Assembly (NCBI GenBank): GCA_012295275.1
Contig: CM022679.1
Coordinates: 2,790,001 to 2,854,000 of the forward strand
Reading direction: 5' to 3'
Length of the DNA stretch: 64,000 bases
From: Chrysomallon squamiferum
Lineage: Eukaryota > Animalia > Mollusca
The notes beneath the pieces are model-generated. The model ran no database searches. It had not been told where the DNA came from and was given only the letters and a program-made list of their open reading frames with translations. Shown in pieces: positions 4,159-61,925 of the stretch (positions are counted from its first letter, which is position 1; the number at the start of each line of letters is the position of its first letter). The translations under genes and the position numbers were made by a program.

Positions 4159-7100
4159 TTATGGTAACTGGCTGTAGGAACACACGCGATCACTATTTAG
4201 TTCACAGAAAGCTTCCTGTGCATTGTTGTTCTGTGAATTATTCTGTTCTCTATTTTCCTCCCATAGATTTTCCTCCTCAGGCTTTTGGTAATAGTTCTCT
4301 AATTTTGGAGAAAAAATATTAAATAAATAAAAAGTAATAATAATTAAAAAAAAAAAATACAAAAAAAAATACAAAAAAAAATACAAAAAAAAAAATTATT
4401 TAACAAAAATAATGTAATGTAGTGTAATATTAACAAAAATAAAAATAAATATTAGATATATAAACAAATAAATATTAAATAAATAAAAATAATAAATAAA
4501 TATTAAGTAAATAAAATATCACATTTTATACAGTTCTCCAATGATAATTTGGTTAAAAATATCCACCACTAAAATAACTGGAAATCACTATTACAGTTCT
4601 AACATCAGTATATATTTTTTGGCCCCAAAAAACAGTTATGAATTTAACATAAGGACTTGAAAGAGATTAGTAAAATAACATTAATAAACAAATAAATAAA
4701 TAAATTCCTTTAAAAAAAATTACCATTAAACAAATTACCTTTAAAAAAATATAAATAACAATAAAATTCTTGCCACATTTTGTAATTGCCAAAAATTATT
4801 TATAGGACATTTCTGTTTTTCTTCCACATTTATCCCCAGACCTTGCTTTTATTATTGTTGTTGTTGTTGTTGCTATTATTACTGCTGTTGCTGTTGTTGT
4901 TATTGGTTATTGAAGAGGTGGTTGAGATTATGTAATTTATCTGGTGATGTTTAATATATACATAAAATGTAAAGAAGCTGTTTATGACAAATTTTCTTAC
5001 CTGTCAGATTTATCGTTTCTCTTTTATCACACAGAACCAGTATTTTATTTTGCATCGAAAAAGCGAAAACAGCTGTTATGATCAAACCTAATATTAATAA
5101 TGCTGTGAGTACAGCCCCGATTGGGAAACTTGGACTGTGTTCTGTGTTTTTTGAAGTGTTTTGGGGGACAACAGCTTTTTCTATTGTTTTATAATGTACC
5201 TGGTCTTTATTTGTCTTGTTTTGTGAATAGTATTCATCTGGAAGAGAAATGTAGAACTTAAAAGTGTCAAAATCACAAAATATTTAAATAACAGGAATAA
5301 TAACGTGAATATGTAAATTATGATCATTAGGAATGTGATAATTTATTGTGAATTAAAATTAATTAAATAATAAAATTAATGTTTCAGAGCTTTACAATGA
5401 ATTAGACAAATTTTGTGGTTGAAAAAAATGAAAAGGCAATATTATTATATAAAAAAAATTGAAAGTCTTAAATCATTTAAAATAAAACAGAATAATTAAT
5501 AGCAGTAGCTGAAGAATTCAAGATTTTATAGTTGACTGAGGAAATAGTTAAAAATACTTTATTGCAAAAGTAAAAACACATTTTGCAACAATAATGTTTT
5601 TTTATAATCTCATCAAATTGACATGCTCTTTGAAAACAGTATATCAGTTTATGTACATAACATATTTTTTCCCTAATATTTAATTCAGTGAAAATAATAA
5701 TAAATAAATCATGGCCTAAACTGCAAATACTTTCAGGCTGAAATATGAAAATTATTTGTTCATGTATACCTGGACATTTTGTTTTGCACTCTTCAGTGGA
5801 TCCAGTAATATTATGTTCATAACACAGAACGGAACATGGCTGACATTTCCCTTTTGTTCCAATATGTCGATCAAAATAGAAACCTTTGGCACATTCATTT
5901 TCATTCTTACTGACATCATTCTTCTCTTGAAAACCTGGTATATGATGAATGTAATTATAATATTAGTGTAACTACTCTTCATCTTATATACATGTTCACC
6001 ATCAATTTACTAATCACAGATGGTCCAAAATCTCTTTTAGACTATAAAGATATAAGATGAGGTATCTGAAATTTTTAATTTTTAATATTTTTTAAATTAA
6101 TAATCTGATTGCACTGATGCAGACAGGATTATAAATGTAAACCACAATTTTATATGGATATATTTAATCATTTAATTGACATTTAATTTAAGTTCCTAGC
6201 ACTTTATGGGAAATATGTATTTAGGTGCTCAGAGGTGTGTAGTTAAATTACTATTATGTGAAATTACTATTATGTGAGCATAACAGTCTGAAAAAAACTA
6301 ATAATATGGAAAGGTTATGGAACCAAGGGTTCTGGAAATTTGGTGTTGTTCCTCTAATAATAATAGAAGTTGGTAGAAGTTAAGCAAATTGTTTTGTGAA
6401 TAAAGATACTCTTATTAATTAGCAGCGACATATGTTTTATGTATATATATTTTGTCTTTTGTATAACCATTAATGAAGAGGATATAACAAAGAGTGGGTA
6501 TTTAAGAATATCTGATCCTGTAACACATCAAGCAAGAAATTCAGCTATTCCTAGACAAGGCCAAAATATCAAAATCATTTGGGATGTTTTTAAGTTAAAC
6601 TACTCTAAACAAATAATTAAAATTCTGACCTAACTCCAACCACTTTAACAAATCAGTCTAAAACATAACAATTGTTTGTTTGTATCTCACCTTTACATTT
6701 AAGTTTGCACTCCTTGGTAGTGCCTCGTTGATTGTGATCATAGCATAATTTAGAACACAGCTCACATTTGCCTCTTAATCCGATATGAGGATCCAAATAA
6801 TATCCATCTGGACACTGTATTTCACTCTTTGAAACACCTAGTGGTCCCCCTTCTTTGTTTGTTTTCAAGTATTTAGCTGAGAAAATATTTTGTAAATATA
6901 GTTCAGTGCAGTTATTTATAAAATACAAAATAATATTGTAATAATATAGCAGTAATAGTAGTTAATAGTAGCAGTAGTAGTAGTAGTAGTAACTGTAACA
7001 CTAATAATACTTTAATAGCCAGAAAGTTTGCTTGTTCAAGGCTTTTTAAATAAATAAAGAAAAAAAAAAAAAAATGAAAAAAGAAAAATTTAAAAATAAT

Positions 7101-7489
7101 CTACAGAACTACAGTTTAAAATAATAAATTTACATGGACACTGAATCCTTTTCATTTCCCAGTATTAAATATTTTATTTTACTGTTTTGAATTTAATGTG
7201 TGGGTGTGGGTGTGGGTGTGGGGTTTTGTGGGGTTTTTTTTAACATATAATAATAAAATTAATTAATTAAAGTTAAATCAAATCAAATCAAATCAAATTA
7301 CCAACCTGAACAAACTGTTTTACAGTCATTTTGTCTTTCTCCATTGCTGCACAATTTATCGCAATTTTCACATTTACCGGTATCAGAATCAAAGATGAAA
7401 CCTTTATTACAGATTCGGGTTGAAATTGGACGAGCCAAAGTAACTTGGATAAGAAACAAAATTACTAATATACATCCACATATATTCAT
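4159..7489 (-). CDS. TNFR-superfamily-like type I receptor A (BCMA/TACI/Grindelwald-type CRDs x3, TM, short tail), about 303 aa
   Basis: Five exons, all introns phase 1 GT-AG: 7489-7306 (signal MNICGCILVILFLIQVTLA + CNKGFIFDSDTGKCENCDKLCSNGERQNDCKTVC), 6876-6691 (CPDGYYLDPHIGLRGKCELCSKLCYDHNQRGTTKECKLKC), 5934-5770 (CAKGFYFDRHIGTKGKCQPCSVLCYEHNITGSTEECKTKC; missed by the ORF track), 5237-5001 (stalk + TM IGAVLTALLILGLIITAVFAFSM), 4298-4159 (ENYYQKPEEENLW...VCSYSQLP*). The joined 912 nt is open. Confidence 0.8.
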
Positions 7490-9786: not shown

Positions 9787-10089
9787 TTATATAATTGTAT
9801 TTGTCAGACATGTGAAACGTTTTTCTGACGGTATCAGACACGACGGTTTTGATAAATCGTTATAAACAGACTTTTTGCGATTTTTTAGTCGCTTGCAGAT
9901 CACGTATGACAAGAAAGATATTAAAAGTAGAACCAGCGTTGTAGCAAGGGCGATAACCAACGTCATATTATAATCTGACGGATAAGTCGATAGGCATTTG
10001 TTGTCATGGAGTCCGGCCGATGTGTCGGAGTAATCTGAAAATGGAAAAAAAATAAAAATAAAAAAAATAAATAAATAAATAAATAAACG

Positions 10090-10139
<50 letters not shown>

Positions 10140-10531
10140 TAAGTTATGTATATATTCAGCCACACACATACATACACAAAATATTTTCGACTATACATGA
10201 TACAGACCAGGGGTGCCCAATACGTCATAGACAGTGTGAGTAGATCGCATAACAACAAAAAATAGCCTATCAACCATCCTGCAAGTGCAAGTGCAAGTGC
10301 AAGTCATCAGAGTAAGGTGATGGCCAAAAATGTACGTACAGGTTCATTCTGTTATGCAAGGTACACCAACATATATTGTAAATATAAGGTATACTTAGAA
10401 TAAATAAATTAAATAAATAAATAAATAAATGTATTGCGCTTTCACTGTAGGTAGATCATTTTGACTTGGTCATTTAAAAAGTGTGAGCACCTCTGATATA
10501 GACAAACGTAGATTACTTTTTAAAAATAGTG

Positions 10532-10568
<37 letters not shown>

Positions 10569-11149
10569 GAATCACTAAATAACTTTGAAGATAAAATGTA
10601 TGATTTAATATTTTTCAGAATTAATGACAGATAAACTAAAAATTTAACAGCAATATCCACAGACATACAAACACAAACTCTACAGCCACTTACATATTTG
10701 GGGCCCTGATGCGTGATCGGTTATGGGGGGCCTTTCGCTGTTTCGGTAAACATAGTTACCTTCTTCTTAGACTTGCTCCATAAAAGATTTTTAAAATTTA
10801 GCCACATGACAGATTTTAATTGAAATTTTTAAGACATGTGGACTGAAGCTGATATTGGGGCCCCTTTGGGTTTAGAGGACCCATAAGTTTAAGCTCTGTC
10901 AGTTTCACAATAGATCACCCCCACAAACAAGCGCGCGCGCGCGCTCACACACGCTACTAAGAAAGAAACACACTTACGTGGACAGCGTTCCTGACATTGT
11001 TTCCTCGTCTTTTGGATGTCGGCTGCGTAACAAATCAAATGGCATGGATCACATTGCTCTGTCACAGGATCATAGTACGTTCCTTCTGCACATTCTTCAC
11101 TGTCAGTGACAGAAGATATAATAAGAATGACAATAATTTCAGTAAGCAT
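9787..11149 (-). CDS. TNFR-superfamily-like type I receptor B (single BCMA/TACI-type CRD, TM, tail with SVYNDL), about 139 aa
   Basis: Exon 11149-10978 (MLTEIIVILIISSVTDS + CAEGTYYDPVTEQCDPCHLICYAADIQKTRKQCQERC; donor c|GTAAGT) and exon 10034-9787 (HYSDTSAG...TM LVIALATTLVLLLISFLSYVIC, KRLKNRKK stop-transfer, SVYNDLSKP...TNTII*). Phase 1, 420 nt open. Confidence 0.8.
10208..10495. mobile_element. Non-autonomous hAT (Charlie-like) MITE in intron of receptor B
   Basis: Imperfect TIRs CAGGGGTGCCCAA / GTGAGCACCTCTG, flanked by an 8-bp TSD atacagac / atatagac (7/8 match). Confidence 0.7.
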
Positions 11150-11879: not shown

Positions 11880-12025
11880 TAAGAAGGAACCTGCTGCACT
11901 GCTTGACTGGGCTACTCTTTTTTGACCAGCAATAAAGTATTTTGTTTATATGTACCTTCCCACGGATGAGAAAATACATACTAATGCCTTTGATGAGCTA
12001 ACTGTGGAGTACATGTTGGAATGTT
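11880..12025 (-). mobile_element. Degenerate SINE-like repeat fragment
   Basis: Loosely resembles, in the opposite orientation, the segment at 29890-29975 (...ccgtggtatgtgctaccctgtctgtggg). Recalled as similar to a widespread mollusc SINE core; not verified. Confidence 0.3.

Positions 12026-12261: not shown

Positions 12262-12332
<71 letters not shown>
12262..12332. repeat. (AAT)n microsatellite
   Basis: Directly visible. Confidence 0.95.
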
Positions 12333-12336
<4 letters not shown>

Positions 12337-13757: not shown

Positions 13758-13834
13758 GATTTGGGGGTTTCCCGATTTGGGGGTTTCCTGATTTCGGGGT
13801 TTCCCGATTCGGGGGTTTCCCGATGTGGGATCTT
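13758..13834 (+). promoter_or_regulatory. Tandem array of NF-kappaB/Rel-like sites (16-bp period) upstream of receptor C
   Basis: gatttGGGGGTTTCCc, gatttGGGGGTTTCCt, gatttcGGGGTTTCCC, gattcGGGGGTTTCCc and a decayed fifth unit. Each of the four fits GGGRNWYYCC; the fourth unit ends about 64 nt before the ATG at 13885. Confidence 0.55.
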
Positions 13835-13884: not shown

Positions 13885-15342
13885 ATGGAGCTGATTTATT
13901 ATTCGTCAGCTGTAATTTTGCTTTCTGTTTACGTTCTAACAAAACCCAATTGTCCACCGAACACTTATTACGACTCTTCAACAAGGAATTGTGATTCGTG
14001 TGGTTTTATTTGCACGTATCCAGAAATTCAAGGCACCGTAGACAAGTGCAAAAACCTCTGTCCAGGTAAATGTATAAATATAAATATAAATATATATCAG
14101 TATATTTTGTTCTAACAATTTTTATCAACGACAATTTGTAAACTAATATATTACTTATTTTGAGTAGTGATTTTTTTTTTTTTTTTTTACATTTAGATTG
14201 TAATAGAGCCTGCACGGGCGCATCCATATTCGAGTGAATTATCTTCACCTCGTAGCCCTGTTGTTATTCATAATACTCATTTTAACAGTCTCGTCAAATT
14301 CTGGTTATATGTTTTTCTATTAGAAACGTCATATACAGAAGATGAATAAAGTACCAAGTTGTTTTTCAAGACCTTTCCACTGTTAATCAACAATCACTTT
14401 GAATACATTTCTTCAGCGTAACTTAAAACAGTTCTAGCTCATATTCGGGATCGGAGGCTTTTTCCCCTCAACTGTTACGTAGTCTTCATTCGAAAAACTG
14501 ATGTAACACAACCGTGTTACACACGCACTGGTAATCACGAAATCGATACTGGAACCCATCCATTTGAAACGATAAAATAAAATTTGGTGCATGCCTGATA
14601 TTTCAAACAACAATTATTTATTGTTTGTGAACGATTGTCTGAAACGCGGAGCCTCGCTTATTGACAACAGGGTGATTTCTTTTCCTAAAATTCTGTAAAG
14701 AAATCAAATCAAATTAATTGCTGTATTATAATTAAAATTTATTTAAGTTCTAATTTTGTGGTGTTATTACTTTCATTTAATAAAAATAACTTTTTTATAT
14801 GAATTACAGTGATAATGTATGAGGTCTGATTTATTTTTCTGTTGTATTAACAGTATATATAACTGACTACACTGTTCAGTCTGTAATACAGGCCATAAGC
14901 ACATAAATTACAGGCCATCAGATAAAGTATATCAAGTTTGTGGTGTCTAAATATATATTTGTTTTCCTTTTTTGTTTCTAGGATTCACCACCCCTAAATC
15001 AACAGATCGACCTATTGATATTGAGGAACCTATTTCATATAGCACCATAGCGATTATTGTCATTATAGTAGTTGTTGCGGTCATCAGTGCTGTTGGTGTT
15101 TCGTACTGCCTAATAAAGAAAAAATGTGCTAAAGGACGTGCAAAAAACCAAGGTTTGACATCATATACGTATTTATTTGACAAGCAAGTTTTTTCTTTAT
15201 TTCTTCATTTATTCGAGTAGCATTATTGTTAGTTTAGCTGACTTTTTTGTTGATTTTTATTTTTATTATTATTTTTTTTTTGTTAATGTTCTTTCATTAA
15301 AATAGTCATATATCTCTATACGCAGATTCTTTTTTTAAATTA

Positions 15343-15391
<49 letters not shown>

Positions 15392-15693
15392 TTCATAGAT
15401 TTGATTTTGTTTTTCCTGTCTAAGGAAAGATGCATCAGCATTGTATATGGCGATATCCTTTGAATTATTCAACGATTTTCACAACTTTTAAAATATCACA
15501 CTGATTTCTGTCACATTATTAAGAATAGTGTATTAAAGCCTGTTTGTTTTAAGGATCTGTTCAATATATTTTACTGGTTTTGTGAAAATACTTTACATAA
15601 TGCTAATTAACTAATGTTTGTTCTTATATACAAAATGTGTGTGTAAATGAGTGTGTGTGTTTATATGTGTTTCTTTATGTATCGATGTGTGTT

Positions 15694-15748
<55 letters not shown>

Positions 15749-16092
15749 TAGTGTATGAGTATGTGTGTGTTTGCCCTGACATTGGTTAATCTCTTGCAGT
15801 CAGGATAATTTCACCATAATCTTTTTTTTCTCTCGGTAAAATTAAAAACATGACTATGACGTGTTTACTGGTTTTACTGAAATATGTAACAGTTGAGTGT
15901 TTCTTTTCTGCAGAGAAAAAACAGAAAAGTAAACTGCTTCCTCCAGAAGACAGGAAAAAACCTGTGGAAGCAACAGAAGAGAATCCTGCTTCTCAGAAAC
16001 TATGGCAAACTAGAAGGGAGACAACCATTGAAAACAAAATGATTTTTAATAAACATGAAAAAGGATACTCTTCAAATAAAGTAATAAAATAG
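13885..16092 (+). CDS. TNFR-superfamily-like type I receptor C (single CRD, TM, TRAF-motif tail), isoform with terminal exon 3a, about 176 aa
   Basis: Exons 13885-14065 (signal + CPPNTYYDSSTRNCDSCGFICTYPEIQGTVDKCKNLC), 14982-15152 (stalk + TM IAIIVIIVVVAVISAVGVSYCLI + KKK) and 15914-16092 (EKKQKSKLLPPEDRKKPVEATEENPASQKLW...). Phase-1 GT-AG introns, open frame. Confidence 0.8.
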
Positions 16093-16390
16093 TTTAGATC
16101 TGAACAAAGAAACAAAACTGGATTAAAAAAACAAAAAACTAAAATAATGTGTATTTGAACAAACATATACAAAATGTGATTGTGTATGTGTGTTTCTCTA
16201 TGTGTGTGCATGAGCATGCATGCATGTGTGTGTGTGTGTGTGTGTGCTTGCAATGAAATTGGTTTAACCCCATGCACTTTTTTTCAGGAACCCTCCATCT
16301 ATTATTATTATTGTGTAAAATTTAAAAAATGACTATTAGGTATATACTGGTTTTGCTGAAGTTACGTACAAGTTGAATTCTTTTTTTTAG

Positions 16391-16467
16391 GTTCCAACAT
16401 AAGAAGACCAGTGCAATGTTCAGAAGCAAATCCTACCTGTGATAAACTGGTAGTATCTGGTCACTAA
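16391..16467 (+). CDS. Alternative duplicated terminal exon 3b of receptor C (GSNIRRPVQCSEANPTCDKLVVSGH*)
   Basis: Poly-T + AG acceptor in phase 1, compatible with exon 2. The peptide and the preceding 70 nt of intron align with exon 3a and its acceptor region. Confidence 0.55.
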
Positions 16468-18223
16468 TTTGAGGAAGATTCTTTTTGTTTTCATGGTGTA
16501 GTAAACAACTTTTCAGTTAATTCTTGACATATATACACTACGGTTTACCTTCACTTTTCTGGACACCTGAAAAAGAGTAGTAAAAGAGATACTGTTCAGT
16601 TAGGATTGGCTTCAATTTGTGGGTAGAAGTTGAAAACATTCGCTTCAACTGTATTAAAAAAAAAAAAAAAACTTATTGAAATAAATAAATAAATTAATTA
16701 AAAACTAAAAAGTAAAAAATGTAAAATAATGTGTATTTGAACAAACAAAAACAAAATAACAACAACAGCTATAGTATTTTTACACTTTTGTACAATCTTA
16801 CTGAATTAAAAGTTATTATAGGCCTGAATAAGATAAGTAATAGACAATTAAATAGTTTGTCTTCTGTTATCTGCTCTTAGTAACAAGCTGCATTATAGCA
16901 TCCTTATTGTTACACTAATTTAAAATTGTACTTAACTTGTACTTAGATGTTAAGGAATGTTAAGAATTACTATTTACATTTAATTTGTACTGAAGTCTTA
17001 AATAATTTTAAAATGTTACAGAATAAGAATAAGATCATATTATTATTTAGTCACGTATTTACATTTGACTTGTATTTGAGTGTCAAAGTATTTTAAATTG
17101 TTATAGAACAAGAGGCATCAGAATATGTGAAACAAGCGGGCCTCTCCTTCCCTTGAAAAACTAGATAAACTGGTAACATGCTGAACATATAAGAGTTTTC
17201 GGTAGAGAGAACATATGAACTGTTTAATACCTAATATCTGTTCTGTTGTTTTTGACTTGTGCATAGCTATTGTGTAAATAAACCGTAAAATAAATGTGTT
17301 AAGATGCAGTTATGTTTATATATATATATATTTAATGTCTTCAAATTTTTAATATTTACAGTTTTCATTTTGTTAAACTTTTACCGTTTATTTACACAAT
17401 AGCTATGTACACAAAGTCAAACTGCAGTTATTGTAATGACACTTTATTGGAAGAAACTGATTTCTGATGCATATTAACAGTTGATGCATTTTGTTGCAGT
17501 TTGCTTTGATTCTTATTGTTATTATTATTTTAGTTGTCTATATGTTATTTGCTGTATGGAATTCTATTTATTTTTAATAATTAATTCTACTGATTGTTTG
17601 TAACATAAATGCATTTTGTAAATATTTGTGTTCTTCTATTTGTGCCATTTAACACAAAAAAAATATCTGATCAGAATGTCATATGTCACCTTTTGTGATA
17701 TCAGATGTGTCACAAGATGCATTACTGTAATTAACACATTTGCATATTAACACATTTATTTACATATACTTATTGTACATGAAAATATAGACTGTTCTTG
17801 AATGTAAACATACGGTTTTAAAGTGTGATGAAGCCATTATGTCAGACTTAATTGTCTGTTCTAGACCATCAGTGACATGTAAATACAAATTTTATACCTT
17901 TTATGTAGTTGTTTTCTTTCTTACTTTTTTACATAATTAGTTGTATAGTTGAATGAAATGAACAGTGAAAGACTCATTTGAACACAAAAAACTTCACTTT
18001 AGTAAACATCTTCCACTGACTGAACAAACTGAGAATTGTGTATACGTAGAGGCCAGTAATCTCTTACACTAGAGTACTTCATTTGATAGAATACAAACAT
18101 ACAAATGTACACACATACATATGTATACACATTGTCAACAGCATTTCCCCACATCATTTTAACAATGTATTAACTTTAAACTGAAACAAACAAAAAAAAA
18201 AATTTAAAATTTAAAAAAAATTA

Positions 18224-18335: not shown

Positions 18336-18415
18336 GATTTGGGGGTTTTCTGATTAGGGGGTTTCCCGATTTGGGGGTTTCCAGATTTGGGGGTTTCCCG
18401 ATATTGGGTTTTCCA
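18336..18415 (+). promoter_or_regulatory. Five-unit 16-bp NF-kappaB-like array upstream of receptor copy D
   Basis: gatttgggggttttct, gattagggggtttccc, gatttgggggtttcca, gatttgggggtttccc, gatattgggttttcca; paralogous to 13758-13834. Confidence 0.5.
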
Positions 18416-18502: not shown

Positions 18503-19618
18503 ATGGAGCTGATTTATTATTCATCAGCTGTAATTTTACTTTCTGTTTACGTTCTAACAAAATTATTTGTAAACCGAACTCTTACTACGATTCTTCGACA
18601 GATAACTGTGATTCATGTGGTTTTATTTGCACATTTGCAGAAATTCAAGGCACGGTAGACAAGTGCAAAAAACTCTCTCCAGGTAAATGAATAAATATAT
18701 TTTGTTCTTGTTCAATTTTGATCAACGACAAATTCTAGACTGTAGTAGAACCTGCATGAGCGCATCCATCTTGGAATGAACGATCTTCGTGTCGGAGCGC
18801 TGTTGTTATTCATAATACTCATTTTAACAGTCTCGTCAAATTCTCTGTTATATGTTTTTCTATTAGAAACGTCATAACGCTTGATATTTAGTACAAAAAG
18901 ATGAGTAAAGTAGCACTGCTAAACATTTTTCAAGACCTTTCCACTGTTAATCAACAATCACTTTGAATAAATTTCTTTAGCGTAACTTAAAACAGTTCTA
19001 ACTCATATTCGGGATCGGAGGCTTTTCCCCCTCAAATGTTTTAGTCTTCATTCGTAGTCTTCATTTTGTAAAACTGAATGTGGTTTTATTGGTTTAATCT
19101 AATAAAAATAACTTTTATATAATTGTTTACAGTGATAATGTATAAGGTCTGGTTTCTTTTTCTATGATTCTGGCCATAAAATCCATCAGGTAAATTAAAA
19201 TTTATTTATTTTCAAGTTTGTGGTGTCTAAATATATATTTGTTTTCTTTTTTACAGTTTCTAGGATACATCATCCCTAAATCAACAGATCCACCTATTCA
19301 GCATGAGGACCCAGTTTCATATAGCACCGTAGCGTCTTTATTTCTTTAAATTGTCATTATAGTAGTTGCTCTGGTTTCTGTTCTTTTGGTGTTTTCTTTT
19401 TGTTTCTAGGAAACAAAACAGATGTGCCTAAAGGACATGAAAAACAGCATATAGCACTATTGACATCATTTTATACGTATTTATTTTGACTTGCAAGTTT
19501 TTGTTTATTTCTTTATTTATTCTAAAAACATTAAGGTTTGACATATTTTACATATTTTAGCTGATTTTTTTTATTTATTTATTTATTTATTAATTTATTC
19601 TTTTTATGATTATTTATT

Positions 19619-19654
<36 letters not shown>

Positions 19655-20328
19655 TTCTTTAAGATGAATTTTTTTTTCCTGTTTAAGGAAAGATGTATCA
19701 GCCTTGTATGAGGAGATATTGTTTGAATTATTAAACGATTTTCACACCTTTTAAAATAATACACTGATTTCTGTCACCTTTTTAAGACTAGTTTGTGACC
19801 AGATACAGATTTAGATTTCATAGATTGTTTACTGATGATACCTAATTCATGATTTCTCTCTAAATAAATCTGTATTTCATTTAAATTTGTTAAGCCTGTT
19901 TCTTTTCAGGATCTGTTAAATATATTTTACTGGTGCTGTGAAAACACTTTTCATAATGCTAAATAACTAATGTTTGTTCTTATATACAAAGTGTGTGTCT
20001 GTTTATATGTGTATCTCTGTATCTCTGTCTGTGTGTGTGTGTGTGTGTGTGGGTGTTGTGTTAACCTCCTGTGTGTCAGTGTAATTTTGTTTTTGCGTCA
20101 ATGATTTTTTTTTTTCACTCAGGAAACCTCTGTATGTTTTTATTGTCATGTAAAATTTAAAAAATAAGTATCAAGTGTATGCTGGTTTTACTGAAATATG
20201 TAACAGTTGAGTGTTTTTTTTCTGCAGAGAAAAAACAGAAAAGTAAACTGCTTCCTCCAGAAGACAGGAAAAAACCGGTGGAAGCAACAGAAGAGAATCC
20301 TGCTTCTCAGAAACTAGTGGTAAACTAG
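18503..20328 (+). pseudogene. Receptor D: tandem duplicate of C, frameshifted and stop-containing
   Basis: Exon 1 (18503-18682) is 180 nt versus 181 in C, with a 1-nt loss before the first Cys and the last Cys changed to Ser (tgt>tct). Exon 2 from 19264 has an inserted in-frame TAA, further indels and no clear donor. Exon 3 (20228-20328) is intact (...PVEATEENPASQKLVVN*). Confidence 0.7.
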
Positions 20329-20789
20329 AAGGGAGACAACCATTGAAAACAAAATAATTTTTGATAAACATGAACAAGGATACTCTTGAAAAAAAGAACA
20401 AAATAATTTAGATCTGAACAAAGAAACAAAATTGGATCTAAAAAAAAAAAAATGTAAATAAAATAAATAAATAAATTAAAAAATAAATAAATAAATGAAT
20501 TAAGAATTAAAAAGTAAAAACTGTAAAATAATGTGTATTTGAACAAAGAACAAACAAAATAACAACAACAAGTAATAGATATTAAATATTTTATCTTCTG
20601 TTATCTGCTCTTAGTAACAAGCTGCAATTTCAGATTACAGATTTGTTTTAATTTATCAAGAGATTATAGCATCCTTATTTTTACACTAATTTAAAATTGT
20701 ACTTAACTTGTACTTAAATGTTAAAGAATGTTAAGAATTACTATTTACTGAAGATGAAAATCATTAAATCCTTTATTTATTTGGTTAAA

Positions 20790-23266: not shown

Positions 23267-24954
23267 AGTCTCACTGAATTATGGTGACTCAAAATGAAGT
23301 TGTTATTCCGATATGTGTGTATTTCCTCTTATTACTTTTAATTTTATTTTATTTACTGACTTATTTATTTTTTCTTATATTATTTATTTATTTATTTTAT
23401 TTATTTTGGCAATTTCACAAATTTTCAACACATTTTTCAGGGGAAAAAACTGGTGTTGTCATTCTTATATTTCAAGACTACTCACTACTATGGTTTAGGC
23501 CAGATGTACTGATTTACGTCACAGCATTTAGTTCTGTCTGTAAAATAAATTTATATGAATGTAGGCCAGTGACAACTTCCAGGATCAACTGTAGTGAACC
23601 CCTTCTGCCCTTATACCGAGTTTCAGGATTCAGAGTCCTAAGCATTTTCTAAATTTAGTCTCTACTATCGTGTAGACCACATAGAGTGATTTATGCCACA
23701 GCTTTCATTTCTGTCTGTAGGTCACAACCAACTGGTTTGTACAGTCCATTTATAGTACCATCCCTAACATTTTGGACCTGTGTTCTTAAATATATATTTA
23801 TAATAATAAATCTTGTGCGTAGAAAATGAAAGACTCGAATCTGAAAATAAAACAAATTTGCCCGTCATGACAGAACTAAATATATCTGTTATTGTGGATA
23901 TTAATAATTAGAAATGGTGATTAATATATCAGAATAATCTATTCAGTATTAATCAACACTGTGTATCTTGATTTTTCATTATTAAGTATTTTAAATATTT
24001 AGTGGTAAACAGTTAAAACGATGCTGTGATATACAGTTTCAACATCCTATGCGATCTCTGAAGGCCAGTTTTTTTCTGTCACGTATTTTTAAATTCCTCA
24101 CACAGGCCATTTCTTTCCTTGTTTATACTATTATTATAAGATATTATAACCCTCAGTTTGGTTTCCGCGGCAAACTGAAGGTTTTGTATACGCGTGATCC
24201 TTCAGAAAAACTCGTGGCCTATAAAAATACGCGAACTTAATTCGTCCTGAAAGTTTCATGTACGTGCAGTTTTCACTCGCTCATTTTGATTGTTTTGGTC
24301 AGACTGAATCTACCTGATTATTTGTCCCTGGGTGATATAAACCAGGATAAAAAAATAAAATAAATAACGACCCTAAAAAAAAGAATTTGAAGAAATGCGC
24401 CACCTGAAATGTGTGCGTGCGTATGTGTGTTACTTAAAAGACTACAAGTATTTGATCTCTAACCATAATCTTCTGCAATACACAAACTCGGCTACAGCTT
24501 GGAGCTCCCTCCAGAAAGGTGTTTCAGGTTCTACTTAGGGGCAATAACTTTATTTCTTTGTTTATTTGAGTAGCATTAGTTTTAGTTTAGCTGACTATTA
24601 TTATTTTTATTTAATATGTTACTTCATTTAAATGATTATATAACTTTAAAAGCAAACTATATATTTTTTAAAATTATTTTTATGTTATTACTGGTTTGGT
24701 GTGAAACTTTTCATAATGCGAATTAACTAATGTTTAATCTCGTGTACAAAGTGTGTGTATGTGGGTATATATCTGTATGTGTTTCTCTATGTGTGTATAT
24801 GTGAGTGTGCGCGTGTGTCTGTATGTGTGCTTGCAGTGATATTGGTTCACCTCCTTCAGTCTGGATAATTTCACCATAATTTTTTATATTTTTTTCAGGA
24901 ACCCTGCATATATTTTTATAATCATGTAAAATTCTAAAAATTTTAAAATATTAA

Positions 24955-25540
24955 TTTAAAATTTCAAGTATAATACACCTAACTTATAATGATGATAGTT
25001 AAATTTCAAATATTACATCATATTAAATGTATAATTATCGTATGTAAATTTCAAACATAATACATCCTACTTATAATGATGACAATTAAATTTGAAATAT
25101 TATATTTAAATAATAACTATATGTAAATTTCAAGTATTGATACAATACATCTAACTTATAATGATGTCTGTAAAAATTTGAAATATATTATATTTAATTT
25201 CTAATTATGATATGTAAATTTCAAGCATAAAACATCCAACTTATAATGATGAATATTAAATTTGAAGTATTATATTATTTTTAATTTATAGTTATATGTA
25301 AATTTGAAGTATTGATACAGTACATCCAACTTATAATGGTGACTGTAAAAATTTCAAATATTATATTATATTTAATTTATATATATGATAAGTAAATTTC
25401 AAGCATAATATATCCAGCTTAGATGACTGAAAATATTTCAAATATTATATTTAATTTATAATTATGATATGTATATTTCAAGCATAATACAACCAACTTA
25501 TAATGGTGACCGTTAAATTTCGAATATTATATTATATTAT
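24955..25540. repeat. AT-rich minisatellite, about 85-88-bp unit, about 7 copies
   Basis: The motif taaatttcaagcataatacatccaacttataatg recurs near 24960, 25045, 25125, 25215, 25300, 25393 and 25472. Confidence 0.85.
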
Positions 25541-26101
25541 AATATACTAAAATGTACAATGTGAAGCTATTGTTAAAATAATCAACGACACTAAAAATGA
25601 AACAAAATATAAACCAGTAATGTTAATAATGAAATATAAATGAATAAAGAAAGAAAGAACAGAAACAACATTAAATAAATATAAACACCTATATTCTCAC
25701 ATTAATATACATAATTATAAATAAAATTAAATAATAAATAATCTTTATTAAAAATAACTATATTTAAAATTTCGCGGGTCTTTTTTTAGTTTCTACAGTT
25801 CCGGTCATTAACGTTTTCTCTCGTTTTCAATAACCAGAGACAGTCGGGTATCTCGTAAGAGTAAGAAACGAGTTATATGCAAGTATGGTAAGTACTGATG
25901 TTATTTATAAGCATGGGGGTGTTAGTGAAATCATATTCTCTATTATATTTTATAACCAAACTGTAAAGAATCTTGACATTTCTTCAAAATCGTTCACCGG
26001 CAAAACATTTCTGTTGATAAACATATCATCAAGTCGAAATGCACGTGCTAAAGCGAAAATATTGAAATGCCGCTATATCGTTAGCAAGGAATATACTGGG
26101 A

Positions 26102-27570: not shown

Positions 27571-27770
27571 NNNNNNNNNNNNNNNNNNNNNNNNNNNNNN
27601 NNNNNNNNNNNNNNNNNNNNNNNNNNNNNNNNNNNNNNNNNNNNNNNNNNNNNNNNNNNNNNNNNNNNNNNNNNNNNNNNNNNNNNNNNNNNNNNNNNNN
27701 NNNNNNNNNNNNNNNNNNNNNNNNNNNNNNNNNNNNNNNNNNNNNNNNNNNNNNNNNNNNNNNNNNNNNN
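27571..27770. other. Scaffold gap (200 N)
   Basis: Run of N; the round size suggests a placeholder of unknown true length. Confidence 0.99.
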
Positions 27771-34976: not shown

Positions 34977-35524
34977 GTGATCTGTTCATCCTGGTGTACA
35001 GCATTGACAACCGAGAGAGCTTTGATGAAGTCAGACGTCTGCTAGATCAGATTGTCGAGTGTAAGAGTCAGTGTCGCAGCGTAAAGGACGTCAAGCTGCT
35101 CAACGTGCCTATCATGATCGTTGGCAACAAGTGTGACCTTGAGAAGGACAGAGTCATTGACCAGAATGACGTCATCAATCTTCTGGAAGGACGTTCCAAC
35201 ACCATCTACACGGAGTGCTCGGCTAAGAAGAACGTAAATATTGAGGATGTGTTCGTACGACTTTTCCACACAGCCAAACTGCCTTCTGAAATGAGTCCAT
35301 CGCTACATCGCAAAGTGCACCCCCAGTACGTGGGCAAAGGCAGCTCGCCCGTGGCTGGCAGAGTCATGTCCATCAGAAGGAAGACCAGTGATGCCTGTGG
35401 GGCGGTGGCTCCCAATGCCAGACGACCCAGCATCAGAACCGATCTGCTGGTTGCCCAGAGCCGGACAAACTCCAGTACGTCACCAGATGACGATACGAGA
35501 GATGCCAAGTGTGTTCTTCAGTGA
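34977..35524 (+). CDS. RASD2: Rhes/Dexras1-type Ras-family GTPase (RASD1/2 co-orthologue), terminal coding exon
   Basis: Acceptor ttgcag|GT GAT; GDLFILVYSIDNRESFDEV, G4 GNKCD, G5 ECSAK, LPSEMSPSLHRKV, DACGAVAPNARRPSIRTDL and CAAX CVLQ are typical of RASD exon 2. The exon with the P-loop is not found in the window. Confidence 0.9.
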
Positions 35525-40704: not shown

Positions 40705-41211
40705 CTAGCCTATAACCAGTTTATGTTTTCCTTCTATTCTGTAAGCACCGTCTTCAAGAACTGGTTCTGCAATCTGCATTAGCAGCCGGCGTACGTCAAA
40801 CGAAGAACTAGGGACAAGACGGTCTGTGGCTTCCAGAAATTGGTACGAATCTTCAGCTCTGCTCGATGTTACAATTGCTGAGAACGCATGACCGGGCGAT
40901 ATAGGATTTCTGTTGTCTTCTTGCAGTAGACATCTGTACATCTGTTCCAGTTGTGCGACATGTCTCAACGAGACATCCGTTCCAGACGCCAAAGGGCAGT
41001 TTGGTGACATCCATCGGTGGAAACTGTTTATAGCAATTTCAGAAACGATGTTACCCGCAGCAGCTACCGCCAAGTGACACACGTGGCACCGGATCGTTCT
41101 CGACTCCTCATCATAATATAATCCTGCATTAGCTATGTTTATGGGCCTACATTGACCTAAATTAGGGAATATCTCCGGTCCGTGAATCTCATTGTCGTTA
41201 ATCCACGCCAT
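40705..41211 (-). CDS. Single-BIR IAP-like protein 1 (degenerate BIR N-terminus, no RING), 168 aa
   Basis: ANAGLYY...IRCHVC-x19-HRWMSPNCP retains the CCHC zinc ligands but has lost R..TF. The C-terminal half is near-identical to the paralogues at 44852 and 56855. Confidence 0.65.
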   Translation of the reverse strand: MAWINDNEIHGPEIFPNLGQCRPINIANAGLYYDEESRTIRCHVCHLAVAAAGNIVSEIAINSFHRWMSPNCPLASGTDVSLRHVAQLEQMYRCLLQEDNRNPISPGHAFSAIVTSSRAEDSYQFLEATDRLVPSSSFDVRRLLMQIAEPVLEDGAYRIEGKHKLVIG

Positions 41212-42487: not shown

Positions 42488-42529
42488 CTGTTTGTCGGTA
42501 AATGGGGATTTCCACCTGGGGAAAACACC
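42488..42529 (-). promoter_or_regulatory. Short 5' non-coding exon of BIR1 containing a consensus kappaB site (GGGGATTTCC, 42504-42513)
   Basis: The block cag-GTGGAAAT...ACAAACAG|GTAA is conserved upstream of all four BIR ORFs (42515-42488, 43604-43632, 56258-56286, 58920-58946). Confidence 0.5.
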
Positions 42530-44851
42530 TTTAATTACTCAACAGTGTCTCCTCTGTAATTTAATAGTTGAAGGATACATGTAAACATTGCGGTGATCAA
42601 TAGAATAAAAATAATAATAATAAATAATAATAAATTCATTTTTAATAAAAATACCAAGTAAAAAGAGAGAAAAATTAATAAACTTCTTTAAACGTTACTT
42701 ACACATCAGAATATTAAAATGTTTGGCACATCGATCATTCATTTTACAAAAAGATGACATCATTTCCTGCTTTCAAATAATACCACTATAGTGTCGCGTG
42801 ACTTGTACGGGTATATGTATCTCAATACAACACACTATTTAAACGGCCCGTATTATGTATATTAAATCGGGTCAAATAATAATATCTAAGAAAGAAAATG
42901 AACATACTTCTGTATGCAAATGCCGTATCTACTTTTTTAATGGGTCAAACTAAAAAATCAACAATAAATATGTTCTCACTGACATGCGAGTTGTTACCTC
43001 AATCATTACACTGAGCTCCTCTAGATTATTTGGAAACCGATTATTATCGTATAGATGGTGTGGATGTCTCTTACCGCATAAAGTATGCAAATATGATAAA
43101 CATTGAAATAATCCATGTATTGAATGTCTGTAAATAATTAATAAAGAAAGTATTCGTCTAAAAATGTGTTTTTTCACAAAAAGCAATCACTGCTACTTCG
43201 TGAGTTTACCAATGGCTTCCATGTTCTACAGGTGACTTGGTTCTTTGTGACTATGCAATTACCGTATCTTCTTTTTTATTACGTAAAGTATTAGTTAAAA
43301 CAGATTAAATTAATCTACAGTATTATATTAATGTTTACTTCCTTCAACTGTTATATTTAACTGTCTTATATTATATGGCAATATGGAGCGGATATTATAC
43401 CTGTGCCACAGGGAACAGGTACGAGGTGATCTTTGTAACTGTTTGATAAGTATGGTGGATAAGTAATTTAATGGTTTCGTAATGAAATCTTATCTCTGGC
43501 TCTGCAGTCAATCAGTGATGAGTGGAGAGATTATCGTCAGTTATCGACGTGTCCTCTGTAATTTGTCCTCCGTTCCGGTTGAGTAATGAAGCTGTCTCCC
43601 CAGGTGGAAATCAATACCATACTGACAAACAGGTAAATGTTTATTTATTTATTTAATTTATTTTATTATTATTATTTTTTTAATTTATTTTTGTTTGGCT
43701 GTTTTTTTCTTAATATATAATTGTGTTGTAATAATATTTTTAAAAAGCATAAAATAATAAAATAAAAAAAACATACACCCACATGTAGTAAACATTCTAA
43801 AATGATATAACATTGTTCTCCTTGTTTAGTGTCACAAATAAATCCGTGATTTCAATACTTCATCTGAGGTTTTGGAATAATTATCTGAGAATTTAATAAC
43901 TTATGTATATAGTAGTAGATGTACTGTTACTATTTATAGTGACTGTACTTAGTGATAGAAGTTACAACAGTTGTAGCAGTAATAGCAGAAACTAGTTCAT
44001 ATTTTTTCTTTCTATTTCCTTGTTGAAATTAGCAAGAAAACAGAAAGATATCACATAACTATACCAATGACATACTTGTCTTCTGATATTTTTATCAAGT
44101 TCAAATCAGTTTTACATATATCGTGACATTGTAGTGATTACTGATTTTTCGCCTAGGTAAGTTGGAAAAATAATTTCTCTTCTGTGTCTTATTAATTTGC
44201 CTGCCGCTTATATAATAATACACGTTAACACAGAATCAGTAAATGAATTACTTTAGATGTACTACTATTACTACTAGCATTACTTTTCTACTGCTGCTAC
44301 TCTAACTGCAAGCGATACCAAAACCACTACAACTACGGCCACTACTACTACTACTACTACTATTATTACTTCTGCTGTCCTATTTCTTCGACTACCAACA
44401 CTAATTGTACTACATCTCTCTGTCATTATGTCACACTTCATCTCTTACACTCTCAGTCCCATTCATTCTCTACATATCTCTCTTTCTATCATCTCTATTT
44501 CTCTCTCTGTCATTATGTCACTCTTTATCTATCTCTCTTACACTCTCACTCCCATTCATTCTCTATATATCTCTCTTTCTATCATCTCTATTACTCTCTC
44601 TATCTATCTGTAACCTCTTTCACTGGTTCTGTTATCTCTCTCCCTCTAGCTCTCTCTATCTCTATGTGTATTTCTGTATCTCTCTCGTTATTTTCTTTTA
44701 AACACTTCTTAACGTAATTTCTTTCCGATTATAAACTGAAAAAACTATTAAACGTTTCATGTTTTCTGTTTTCTTTTCAAACTGTTTATTTTTTTTTTCT
44801 CTCTCTCTCTTTATGCTAAACAGTCTGTACGTATTGTATAATAAAGCTAAC

Positions 44852-45415
44852 ATGGCGAGGATTGTTTGGAATAAGGACATTGAGCTTTGCCGACTACGGA
44901 CATTCCAGACATGCCCTGATATAGGTCAACGTCGGGCCAAGAAGCTGGCTAGTGCAGGATTACACTATGATGAAGAAAGGAGAGAGATCCGATGTCACGT
45001 GTTTGACAGGGGGGTAGCTGTGAGTGAGATCGACCCTGAAACTGATGACAACAGTCTCCACCTTCGGCTGTCACCAAACTGCCCTTTGGCGTCTGGGACG
45101 TATTCTCGTAATGTTCCCATTCAGAATGAAATGTCGCTGAGACATGTCGCACAATTGGAACAGATGTACAGACGTCTACTGCAGGAAGACAACAGAAATT
45201 CTACGTGTCCCGATCATGCGTTCTTCCGCCAGGAATCCTCAGCAATTGTAACATCAAGCAGAGCTGAAGATTCGTACCAATTTCTGCAAGTCACAGACCG
45301 TCTTGTCCCGAGTTCTTCGTTTAACATACACCAGCTGCTGATGGAGATTGCAGAACCAGTTCTTGAAGACGGTGCTTACAGAATAGAAGGAAAGCATGAA
45401 CTGGTTATAGGCTAG
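44852..45415 (+). CDS. Single-BIR IAP-like protein 2 (second zinc-ligand Cys>Phe), 187 aa
   Basis: ELCRLRTFQTCP...KLASAGLHYD...IRCHVF-x18-HLRLSPNCPLASG..NVPI. The likely start is ATG 44852 in the conserved aaagctaacATGG context. Confidence 0.7.
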   Translation: MARIVWNKDIELCRLRTFQTCPDIGQRRAKKLASAGLHYDEERREIRCHVFDRGVAVSEIDPETDDNSLHLRLSPNCPLASGTYSRNVPIQNEMSLRHVAQLEQMYRRLLQEDNRNSTCPDHAFFRQESSAIVTSSRAEDSYQFLQVTDRLVPSSSFNIHQLLMEIAEPVLEDGAYRIEGKHELVIG

Positions 45416-52438: not shown

Positions 52439-52476
<38 letters not shown>

Positions 52477-53381: not shown

Positions 53382-53419
<38 letters not shown>

Positions 53420-55860: not shown

Positions 55861-56771
55861 ACAACAAGTTTGGTCAAAAAGACAGATCGTCCCGAATACA
55901 GATAACTAAGATAAAACAATAAAACATTTTTATTGTCTAACAAATAAAGCAGTATAAATGTTATTAATAGAAGTTTTACTTTTAATGAGCTTTACAGAAG
56001 AAAAATAAAATACTCGGTGATATCTGTAATTTGCGCAATGTTTATACACACAATGTTTTCGTAGATTTTCTGATGACATTTTTTTTATGACACTACGCGA
56101 AAAAAAAATGACCTCTGCTAACCTGGTACAGAGAGTAACGAGTTATTTCTCACAGATATTAGTTTAATTCTGAATCGCAGAGGCAACACTTTAACAACAT
56201 CTTTCAGTTGTTAAATTACATCCATTGTTGAGTAATGAAGGTGTCTGTTGATCCCAGGTGGAAATCAATTATATAGCGACAAACAGGTAAGTGTATATTT
56301 ATTTATCTATTTTATTTTATTATTATTATTTTTTTAAATTGATATTTGTTTCGTTGGTAACAACATTTAATATCTCATTGTGCTATAATAATATTTATAA
56401 GAAGTATATAGCTCCTCGAAAAACTGAATAATCGATGTGTCAAACGTGCTTGTATTTTAATGTTCTAATGTGTAAGTTTTATTCAAGTATATTTTCAGGT
56501 TTCACATGGTGGCTTTTAGGGGGTTTTGAGGGTTTTGTTTTTCTTAAAAACAATTAATATTTAATGTGGTCTAATAATTGTGGTATAATAATATTTTTTA
56601 AGAGTTTCGTCTGAGGTTTTTGAATAATTATCAGAGAATTTAATAATTTATACATATAGTAGTATAAAAAAACTATTAAATGTTTCAAGTTTTCTGTTTT
56701 ATTTCGAATTGTTTATTTTTTCTCTCTCTCTTTATGCTAGACAGTCTGTACGTATTGTATAATAAAGCTAA

Positions 56772-57331
56772 CGAGGATTATTTGGAATAAAGACAAAGAG
56801 ATTCACAGACTGGGGACATTCTGGACCTGCCCTCATTTAGGTCAACGTCGGGTCATGAAGCTGGCTAGAACAGGATTACATTATGATGAAGAAAGGAGAG
56901 AGATCCGATGTCACGTGTGTAACAGAGGTGTAGCTGTGAGTGAGATCGACCATGAAACTGATGACAACCGCCTCCACCTTCGGCTGTCACCAAACTGCCG
57001 TTTGTCGTCTGGGACGTATTCTCGTAATGTTCCCATTCAGAATGAAATGTCGCTGAGACATGTCGCACAATTGGAACAGATGTACAGACGTCTACAGCAG
57101 GAAAACAACAGAAATTCTACGTGTCCCGGTCACGCGTTCTTCCGCCAGGAATCCTCAGCAATTGTAACATTGAGCAGAGCTGAAGATTCGTACCAATTTC
57201 TGAAAGTCACAGACCGTCTTGTCCCTAGTTCTTCATTTGACGTACGCCGGCTGCTAAGGGAGAATGCAGAACCAGTTCTTGAAGACGGTGCTTACAGAAT
57301 AGAAGGAAAGCATGAACTGGCTATAGGCTAG
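56772..57331 (+). pseudogene. Single-BIR IAP-like copy 3; original start codon deleted (N-truncated ORF 56855-57331 or pseudogene)
   Basis: aaagctaac[atggc deleted]gaggatt relative to BIR2. The frame is otherwise open (RIIWNKDKEIHRLGTFWTCP...CHVC-x18-H-x6-C). The next ATG at 56855 lies after the R..TF helix. Confidence 0.65.
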
Positions 57332-58905: not shown

Positions 58906-58946
58906 GGTGTTTTCCCCAGGTGGAAATTCCCAAGATAAACAAACAG
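58906..58946 (+). promoter_or_regulatory. 5' non-coding exon of BIR4 with consensus kappaB site (GGAAATTCCC = GGGAATTTCC on minus, 58922-58931)
   Basis: Paralogous to 42488-42529; ends in AG|GTAAGT. Confidence 0.5.
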
Positions 58947-61218: not shown

Positions 61219-61397
61219 GTTTTCCTTTAAACACTTTAATTGAGTAATTAGAATTTCAGAATATTTTATTTTCAGAAACACGCCCATTCTCACTTATTCT
61301 ATTCTGTTAATATTTTCCTTGGGCAGACAGAGAAGACTATCGTTTCTCGGAGAAGGTTCCAGAAACAACAGTTTTGAACATTTAAAATAAAGCTAAC

Positions 61398-61925
61398 ATG
61401 GCGAGTAGTATTTGGAATAATGACAATGAGTTTTATCGACTACTGACATTCCAGACCTGCCCTGATGTAGGACAACGTCGGGCCACGAAGCTGGCTAGAA
61501 CAGGATTACATTATGATGAAGAAAGGGGAGAGATCCGGTGTCACGTGTGTAACAGAGGTGTAGCTGTGAGTGAGATCGACCCTGAAACTGATGACAACAG
61601 TCTCCACCTTCGGCTGTCACCAAACTGCCCTTTGGCGTCTGGGACGTATTCTCGTAATGTTCCCATTCAGGCCGACATATCGCTGGGACATGCGACACAA
61701 TCGGTGCAGGAAAGCAACAGGAATTCTAACAGAAATTCTGCATATGCCCAAATTGTAACATCCAGCGGAGCTGGAGTTTCGTACCAGTTTTTACTAGACA
61801 CAGACAGTCTTGTCCCCAGTTCTTCAACGTTTAACTTAAACCAGCTGCTAATGGAGATTGCAGAGTATGTTCTAGAAGACGGTGGATATATAATGGAAGG
61901 AAAGCACAAACTGGTTATAGGTTAG
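61398..61925 (+). CDS. Single-BIR IAP-like protein 4 (complete BIR, no RING), 175 aa
   Basis: EFYRLLTFQTCP...KLARTGLHY...IRCHVC-x18-HLRLSPNCP-LASG..NVPI has all BIR hallmarks (R..TF, LA..G.Y, CCHC). Confidence 0.8.
   Translation: MASSIWNNDNEFYRLLTFQTCPDVGQRRATKLARTGLHYDEERGEIRCHVCNRGVAVSEIDPETDDNSLHLRLSPNCPLASGTYSRNVPIQADISLGHATQSVQESNRNSNRNSAYAQIVTSSGAGVSYQFLLDTDSLVPSSSTFNLNQLLMEIAEYVLEDGGYIMEGKHKLVIG

What the first reader, a model, noticed from the sequence alone, without database searches (positions are those of the whole stretch)
4159..61925. TNFR-like cluster and IAP-like cluster co-located, both carrying kappaB-like sites: candidate self-regulating TNF/TRAF/IAP/NF-kappaB locus
Seen: receptors with TRAF-type tail motifs, four single-BIR proteins 13-35 kb away, and GGGRNWYYCC sites at the 5' ends of members of both families. 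Established: TNFR tails recruit TRAF2/3, type I BIR domains of cIAPs bind TRAF2, and cIAP2 is an NF-kappaB target. Inference: this could be a physically clustered, inducible receptor-plus-modulator module. Caveat: a scaffold gap and unrelated genes (RASD, CNBD) lie between, and molluscan IAPs are numerous, so proximity may be chance.
Basis: partly seen in the sequence, partly recalled or inferred. Interest (0 to 1): 0.75.

Follow-up and report, generated by a model that had tools for sequence, protein, structure and literature searches.

The report
Neighbouring TNF-receptor and BIR gene arrays
A snail-like genome carries a run of small TNF-receptor-type genes and, across an unsized assembly gap, four copies of a cut-down apoptosis-inhibitor gene; members of each are likely switched on by NF-kappaB, but the inhibitors lack the parts needed to act on the receptors in the proposed way, so the two groups are probably just neighbours.

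Summary
Both gene groups exist. There are three intact receptors (A, B, C) with Grindelwald/BCMA/Fn14-type cysteine-rich domains, one frameshifted copy (D) and remnants running into the gap. There are four type I single-BIR frames, and only I4 is fully canonical. The 21 kappaB hits collapse to 5 clusters and 3 independent origins. They lie at the 5' ends of C, D, I1 and I4, and scrambled motifs hit both families in only 6 of 3000 trials.

The proposed TRAF2-bridged module is not supported. cIAP's TRAF2 contacts E47/R48 are absent in 4 of 4 BIRs and in the Gigantopelta homologue, and there is no RING. The gap must hide more than 200 bases, or be a misjoin, or the Ras exon beside it is an orphan: about 77 N-terminal codons of that gene are nowhere in the window. 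Chance proximity to some IAP is about 1.5-15% per genome under stated assumptions. Expression and synteny are untested.

Verdict: two independent birth-and-death arrays, each likely NF-kappaB-responsive. What is new is a RING-less type I BIR subfamily with an uncharacterised conserved C-terminal motif, and a tandem kappaB array upstream of receptor C.

The parts
4159..7489 (-). Receptor A: signal peptide, three CRDs (one per exon), TM helix, tail with PEEE; 303 aa, five exons
   Evidence: exons 7306-7489, 6691-6876, 5770-5934, 5001-5237, 4159-4298; open frame
9787..11149 (-). Receptor B: one CRD, TM helix, short tail with PSEKRF (TRAF6-type); whether exon 2 is the last exon is unconfirmed
   Evidence: (BCMA-Tall_bind E 0.0077, below cut-off)
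13758..13823 (+). Tandem array of four 16-bp units carrying kappaB consensus sites, about 60-125 bases upstream of C's ATG
13885..16468 (+). Receptor C: one CRD, TM helix, two paralogous candidate last exons (15914-16092 with PVEATE; 16391-16468 with PVQCS)
18336..18415 (+). Duplicate kappaB array (five units) upstream of D; same origin as C's
18503..20330 (+). Receptor D: pseudogene copy of C (frameshift in exon 1, stops in exon 2, last CRD cysteine lost); end approximate
24540..27570 (+). Remnant receptor units (E), including a TM exon at about 26332-26453; the contig ends inside a stretch 92% identical to C's last intron; start approximate
27571..27770 (.). 200-N scaffold gap of unknown true length
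   Evidence: missing Ras 5' exon
30000..30010 (.). kappaB consensus site near no gene of either family
34977..35524 (+). Last coding exon of a Ras-family (RASD-like; that name is recalled) GTPase gene; residues before about 78 are absent from the window
40705..41211 (-). BIR gene I1: type I-like, Zn ligands kept, RxxTF lost, conserved C-terminal motif
42488..42513 (-). I1 inferred non-coding first exon: splice donor at 42488, kappaB site at 42504-42513
43606..43632 (+). I2 inferred first-exon donor; homologous position lacks the kappaB consensus
44852..45415 (+). BIR gene I2: second Zn cysteine replaced by Phe
56260..56286 (+). I3 inferred first-exon donor; homologous position lacks the kappaB consensus
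56741..57331 (+). BIR gene I3: start codon lost to a 5-base deletion; likely pseudogene or N-truncated
58922..58946 (+). I4 inferred non-coding first exon: kappaB site at 58922-58931, donor at 58946
61398..61925 (+). BIR gene I4: the only fully canonical copy; 175 aa, type I BIR plus conserved C-terminal motif, no RING

Best explanation
The window holds two separate local duplication arrays, one of small TNF-receptor-type genes and one of RING-less single type I BIR genes; members of each are likely NF-kappaB-inducible, but they probably sit near each other incidentally and not as one selected module. Shown: the gene structures, the broken copies, the site positions and the residue substitutions. 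Inferred: the receptors would bind a TNF-family ligand and recruit TRAFs through their tails, and Rel binding at the tandem kappaB array would raise receptor C during immune challenge. Inferred, weaker: I4 is a non-catalytic adaptor or decoy working through the BIR1-type surface, more like XIAP BIR1 than cIAP BIR1, plus its own C-terminal motif. It cannot ubiquitinate and is not predicted to dock on TRAF2 as cIAP does.
For: Each array is explained by local duplication: C/D are 74-84% identical over several segments; I1's flanks are inverted copies of the I3-I4 flanks, up to 96.7% over 517 bases. Birth-and-death decay is visible in D, E, I2, I3 and partly I1. E47/R48 are absent in 4 of 4 BIRs and in P0001 and P0012. 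The best PDB matches are DIAP1 BIR1 and XIAP BIR1 (E 6e-7 to 1e-5) against 0.037 for cIAP2 BIR1. There is no RING. The Gigantopelta homologue is a single dispersed one-BIR gene. IAP clusters of three or more occur in half of 20 species surveyed, and gastropods carry 22-89 IAPs (passages). Chance proximity within 35 kb is 1.5-14.5% for 5-20 receptor loci in 1.15 Gb or 444 Mb. Unrelated genes and an unsized gap lie between the arrays.
Against: Strict sites sit at 5' ends in both families more often than scrambled motifs do (6 of 3000). A looser, post hoc Rel-type pattern also lies 271-371 bases upstream of A and B. The BIR site is kept in I4 and I1 and is missing in the two copies with a lost start or Zn ligand. 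All 8 internal indels among the BIR frames keep the frame, so selection acted on them. For a single receptor locus the chance of an IAP within 35 kb is only 0.3-0.8%. Mollusc TRAFs could not be examined, so co-evolved contacts are not excluded.
Confidence: 0.62

Rival explanations
1. The arrays are truly linked and form a co-regulated NF-kappaB neighbourhood: Rel induces the receptors and also RING-less BIR decoys that damp or redirect receptor signalling by a route other than cIAP-like TRAF2 docking, such as competing for TAB1 or using the C-terminal motif.
For: 5' kappaB placement in both families; frame-keeping indels; type I BIRs are adaptor-binding modules in NF-kappaB signalling (passages); the top Foldseek row is XIAP BIR1 in the TAB1 complex, E 3e-3 on a low-confidence model.
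Against: No expression, synteny or contact data; unrelated genes intervene; the gap is unsized; trans regulation needs no linkage; only C among intact receptors has a strict site.
Confidence: 0.2
2. The scaffold join at the gap is wrong or spans a long distance, so the co-location is an assembly effect.
For: The left contig ends inside a receptor repeat unit. The right contig starts without the roughly 230 coding bases of the Ras gene's 5' part, which do not fit in 200 bases and were not found in the window. A round 200 N is a usual placeholder (recalled).
Against: A correct join hiding a few kb to tens of kb explains the same facts, as would an orphan Ras exon. No read-level test was obtained.
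Confidence: 0.12
3. One reading: the BIR proteins dock on TRAF2 at the receptor tails as cIAP BIR1 does, making a self-regulating receptor-TRAF-IAP-NF-kappaB locus.
For: The BIRs are type I by the H77/L80/S81 rule; L30 and M33 align to hydrophobic F and L in I4; the receptor tails carry TRAF-type motifs.
Against: E47/R48 absent in all copies and both homologues; no RING, so no E3 activity; the subfamily forms its own clade (FastTree support 0.90), far from a cIAP-like BIR1; 3 of 4 copies are damaged.
Confidence: 0.06

Closest known systems
Drosophila Grindelwald and vertebrate BCMA/TACI/Fn14 (single-CRD, death-domain-less TNF receptors)
   Same: Hairpin plus two helices in the model; Cx3Cx11Cx3C module as described for Grindelwald in 4 of 5 CRDs of intact genes; top fold rows are Grindelwald (Z 3.6, rmsd 3.2, 40 aligned), BCMA and Fn14; short tails with TRAF-type motifs.
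   Different: Six cysteines rather than Grindelwald's eight; A has three such CRDs in tandem; local array with pseudogenes; all matches are individually weak, and two database searches found no homologue. Grindelwald homologues and expansions in molluscs and annelids are already reported (passages).
Gigantopelta aegis XP_041354874.1 (LOC121372548), a one-BIR, RING-less IAP
   Same: 44% identity, E 2.5e-23; same C-terminal motif ending the protein; same lack of E47/R48; three exons.
   Different: A single dispersed copy there, with no orthogroup assigned; four local copies here.
cIAP1/2 (BIRC2/3) with TRAF2
   Same: Type I BIR; likely an NF-kappaB target.
   Different: No E47/R48, no BIR2/3 and no RING seen; cannot be the receptor-complex E3 ligase.
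Molluscan tandem IAP expansions (oysters, hard clam, gastropods)
   Same: Local clusters, mixed orientation, degenerate BIRs, single coding exon (passages).
   Different: This subfamily's C-terminal motif matches nothing in Pfam or PDB, and only 2 of 152 fetched proteins carry it.

Membership tests
TNF receptor superfamily, single-CRD type (Grindelwald/BCMA/Fn14) | Type I membrane topology: signal peptide, ectodomain, one TM helix, tail | tested here: met
   exon chains and hydropathy for A, B, C (C's signal peptide read by eye)
TNF receptor superfamily, single-CRD type (Grindelwald/BCMA/Fn14) | CRD with hairpin plus C2 helical module (Cx3Cx11Cx3C) | tested here: met
   alignment against the consensus in PMC8024323; 4 of 5 CRDs exact, A's first has x8; model
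TNF receptor superfamily, single-CRD type (Grindelwald/BCMA/Fn14) | Significant profile or fold match to a family member | tested here: inconclusive
   Pfam TNFR_c6 and BCMA-Tall_bind below cut-off; PDB profile E 0.03-0.06 to BCMA; Foldseek E 0.3 and Z 3.6; all point the same way but none is strong
TNF receptor superfamily, single-CRD type (Grindelwald/BCMA/Fn14) | TRAF-interacting motif in the tail | tested here: inconclusive
   motifs present in A, B, C (consensus); shuffle p 0.33, 0.003, 0.07/0.01; binding not tested
TNF receptor superfamily, single-CRD type (Grindelwald/BCMA/Fn14) | Binds a TNF-family ligand | not testable with these tools
IAP family | BIR domain above Pfam cut-off | tested here: met
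   4 of 4
IAP family | CCHC zinc ligands | tested here: met
   met in I1, I3 and I4; not in I2, where the second Cys is Phe
cIAP1/2-type TRAF2-binding IAP | Type I BIR (no IBM groove) | tested here: met
   L80/S81 in I2-I4, M80/S81 in I1, no E/Q76 (rule, applied)
cIAP1/2-type TRAF2-binding IAP | TRAF2 surface L30, M33, E47, R48 | tested here: not met
   E47/R48 replaced in 4 of 4; mapped through a cIAP-like database protein, P0141, whose numbering coincides
cIAP1/2-type TRAF2-binding IAP | Further BIRs and a C-terminal RING | tested here: not met
   stop at the same position in all four and the same C-terminal motif in two homologues; no RING pattern in six frames
NF-kappaB target genes | kappaB consensus near the 5' end | tested here: met
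   4 of 8 genes, from 2 independent origins; scrambled-motif control 6 of 3000; transcription starts not mapped
NF-kappaB target genes | Rel binding and induction | not testable with these tools
   needs ChIP, reporter or challenge RNA-seq
Selected functional gene cluster | Physical linkage at the stated distance | tested here: inconclusive
   gap hides more than 200 bases, or is a misjoin, or the Ras exon is an orphan
Selected functional gene cluster | Conserved adjacency in relatives | not testable with these tools
   no eukaryote genomes held; the supplement lists IAP positions only
Selected functional gene cluster | Co-expression | not tested
   no reads were laid on either array

The most novel reading that the evidence does not exclude
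A vent-snail-type lineage keeps a linked NF-kappaB feedback neighbourhood. Rel induces Grindelwald/BCMA-type receptors through a tandem kappaB array and also induces a lineage-restricted, RING-less type I BIR decoy, whose conserved C-terminal motif engages the receptor signalling complex by a route that does not use cIAP's TRAF2 surface, tuning cell death and immunity in a symbiont-bearing animal.
Probability: 0.12. Interest if true: 0.7.

Novelty: new variant of a known kind. Interest (0 to 1): 0.33.

Why it matters
If the module were real, it would be a rare animal case of a receptor and its intracellular modulator kept together under one transcription factor; two literature searches found no such report. 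As it stands, the value is narrower. It is an undescribed RING-less type I BIR subfamily with a conserved tail of unknown function, shared with Gigantopelta, and a set of fast-evolving single-CRD receptors that Pfam and homology searches miss, one with four kappaB sites in tandem that can be tested directly in a reporter assay.

Tried and rejected
No whole genome is held, so no genome-wide permutation test or synteny check was possible. No reads were laid on either array, so expression, splicing and the gap remain open. Two RNA runs hold 0.10-0.12 of the words of 4100-14090, a small unlaid share that is not used as evidence. Homologue searches with a receptor exon and with a six-CRD profile found nothing (weak evidence). 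The Atlas gave no answer for the receptor exon; for P0001 it returned only generic BIR clusters. The idea that the BIR frames are first exons of long IAPs was rejected because homologues end at the same motif. The idea that the kappaB array is a widespread dispersed repeat found no support: one unrelated match in the metagenome collection, which may not hold this animal's DNA. dN/dS among the BIR copies was 0.36-1.07 on few sites and is not decisive. The C-terminal motif matched nothing in PDB or Pfam, and its model is low confidence. No complex was predicted, as no TRAF sequence was available. PMC2855162 is not held. Four look-ups of earlier findings returned nothing.
Full report
Setting. The window is 31% G+C, rich in microsatellites, with one 200-N gap at 27571-27770. 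No genome is held. The nearest relative of the BIR genes is from the vent snail Gigantopelta aegis, so a gastropod, probably a neomphaline, is inferred.

Receptors. A six-frame scan found five cysteine-rich domains, and a sixth lies in D's frame. Exon chains with phase-1 junctions give open frames for A (303 aa, three CRDs), B (139 aa) and C (176 or 142 aa, two paralogous last exons), each with a TM helix. D has a 1-base deletion in exon 1 and stops in exon 2. Further remnants run to the contig end, which falls inside a stretch 92% identical to C's last intron, so the array likely continues into the gap. Family evidence is weak piece by piece but agrees. Pfam gives TNFR_c6 and BCMA-Tall_bind below cut-off. 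A six-CRD profile ranks BCMA, p75 and TACI at E 0.03-0.5, behind one unrelated hit at 0.003. The model (pLDDT 75) is a hairpin plus two helices, and its best fold rows are BCMA (Foldseek E 0.3) and Grindelwald, BCMA and Fn14 (Z 3.6, 2.8, 2.2). The Cx3Cx11Cx3C module described for Grindelwald (PMC8024323, passages) is exact in 4 of 5 CRDs of intact genes. Two homologue searches found nothing.

Tail motifs. Against the consensus motifs in PMC6125299 (passages), A has PEEE, B has PSEKRF and C has PVEATE or PVQCS. PVQCS has Ser where the cited motif has Thr; accepting Ser is recalled. In 5000 shuffles of each tail the chance of the matched class was 0.33 (A), 0.003 (B), 0.069 (C, first exon) and 0.010 (C, second). 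So B and C are suggestive and A is at chance level.

BIR genes. All four frames pass PF00653 and are 75-92% identical in DNA. All are type I or type I-like by the rule in PMC8917759 (passages; applied). Only I4 has a start codon, the RxxTF motif and all four zinc ligands. I2 has Phe for the second Cys, I3 lost its ATG, and I1 lost RxxTF; that the Arg matters for the fold is recalled. All 8 indels inside the frames are multiples of three (about 1.5e-4 if neutral, alignment-dependent), so the frames were under selection. Among the 150 listed of 364 hits in the 1.84-billion-protein library, one stands out (P0001, E 2.5e-23); a profile search added only P0012 as a strong hit. Both end in the same C-terminal motif as the four copies. 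Outside the BIR the likeness beats shuffles in 0, 0, 0 and 6 of 3000 trials. The motif matches nothing in PDB or Pfam. In a FastTree of 400 BIR domains the six form one clade (support 0.90; short alignment). The supplement of PMC13159474 lists P0001's gene as three exons, one BIR, no RING, dispersed, no orthogroup, BIR subgroup E (rows seen).

The TRAF2 test. The cIAP2 residues most important for TRAF2 are L30, M33, E47 and R48 (review PMC6360406, passages; the primary paper is not held). A cIAP-like database protein aligns without gaps over this stretch and has L30, E47 and R48 at those numbers. I4 has F, L, A, T at the four positions. I2, I3 and I1 have A/K, V/M and P/I at 47/48, and both homologues P/I. 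I4's best solved relatives are DIAP1 BIR1 and XIAP BIR1; cIAP2 BIR1 scores E 0.037. No RING pattern lies in any frame of the window. A caveat: only 1 of 267 BIR-like cores among the fetched proteins has the E-R pair, so invertebrate IAPs may reach TRAFs differently, and no mollusc TRAF could be examined.

kappaB sites. The 21 matches (0.83 expected) are 5 clusters. C and D share one 16-bp tandem array inside a duplicated segment, and I1 and I4 share one position about 25 bases before a splice donor kept in all four copies. At that position I2 and I3 lack the consensus. With the site at 30000 this makes 3 independent events; 400 Markov simulations give 0.8 on average and P(3 or more) = 0.058. 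Placement is the stronger signal. Of 3000 scrambled versions of the motif, 6 hit a 500-base 5' window in both families. These windows were set after the sites were seen, and transcription starts are not mapped. It says nothing about linkage, as the factor acts in trans.

Linkage. The nearest intact receptor is 24 kb from I1 and 45 kb from I4, plus the gap. The Ras-family exon at 34977 aligns from residue 78 of Ras proteins onward. The P-loop and switch motifs were not found on the plus strand upstream, and none of 42 filtered plus-strand frames between 20.6 and 35 kb matched Ras in Pfam. About 230 coding bases are missing, so the gap is longer than drawn, the join is wrong, or the exon is an orphan. 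Using the 48 Gigantopelta IAP positions and genome sizes of 1.15 Gb and 444 Mb (PMC7895826, passages), 0.3-0.8% of a genome lies within 35 kb of an IAP. With an assumed 5-20 receptor loci the chance of one such neighbour is 1.5-14.5%, and 3.5-31% at 100 kb. This is not negligible for a pair noticed among many possible immune pairs, but it is not proof of chance either. No reads were laid, so expression and the join are untested.

Literature. Tandem IAP clusters with mixed orientation are common in molluscs (PMC8917759 and PMC13159474, passages). Grindelwald-type receptors are reported in molluscs (bioRxiv 10.1101/2024.07.27.603686, passages; its supplements were not seen and may list such receptors). 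PMC3697994 was seen in passages only. Two searches for a TNFR-IAP cluster returned 0 papers; some searches were seen as listings. The library lacks most subscription journals.

Verdict. The parts are real and partly novel in detail; the module is not supported. Most likely (0.62) these are two independent birth-and-death arrays, each likely NF-kappaB-responsive. A linked co-regulated neighbourhood by another route has 0.2, an assembly effect 0.12, and the cIAP-like TRAF2 module 0.06. Interest 0.33.

Noticed in passing
window 401-1609 (+): 3' exons of a CCDC96/CCDC113-family gene (Pfam E 1.3e-11); a single-copy flank useful for synteny tests.
   Followed up: partly
window about 47800-54490 (-): A multi-exon gene lies between I2 and I3. 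The CNBD label got no Pfam support on the exons tested. Its 5' exons were not recognised up to 64000, so I3 and I4 may sit in one of its introns on the opposite strand.
   Followed up: partly
window 49049-50177: About 1.1 kb of 39-bp tandem repeat, apparently amplified from the splice acceptor of one exon of that gene; it reads as a 366-aa open frame on the minus strand.
   Followed up: no
window 58906-58931 and 42504-42530: Beside the BIR kappaB site lie a CAGGTG E-box and a second, one-mismatch kappaB-like site; possibly a composite element.
   Followed up: no
window 11149-13885 and 42488-43632: B and C are head to head 2.7 kb apart, and the first-exon donors of I1 and I2 are head to head about 1.1 kb apart; each pair could share regulatory DNA.
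   Followed up: no
window 15914-16092 and 20228-20330: C's first candidate last exon differs from D's by a 1-base deletion that extends the tail past the stop used in D.
   Followed up: partly
window 29500-30010: A G+C-richer non-repetitive stretch ending in a strong kappaB site with no assigned gene; possibly an enhancer or a non-coding exon.
   Followed up: partly
window 24916-25580 and 36425-37015: Two further minisatellite arrays.
   Followed up: no
L001 2325-2380: An unrelated metagenome contig has a similar kappaB-like 16-bp tandem repeat just upstream of a helicase-like frame (by eye), showing such arrays can arise elsewhere.
   Followed up: no
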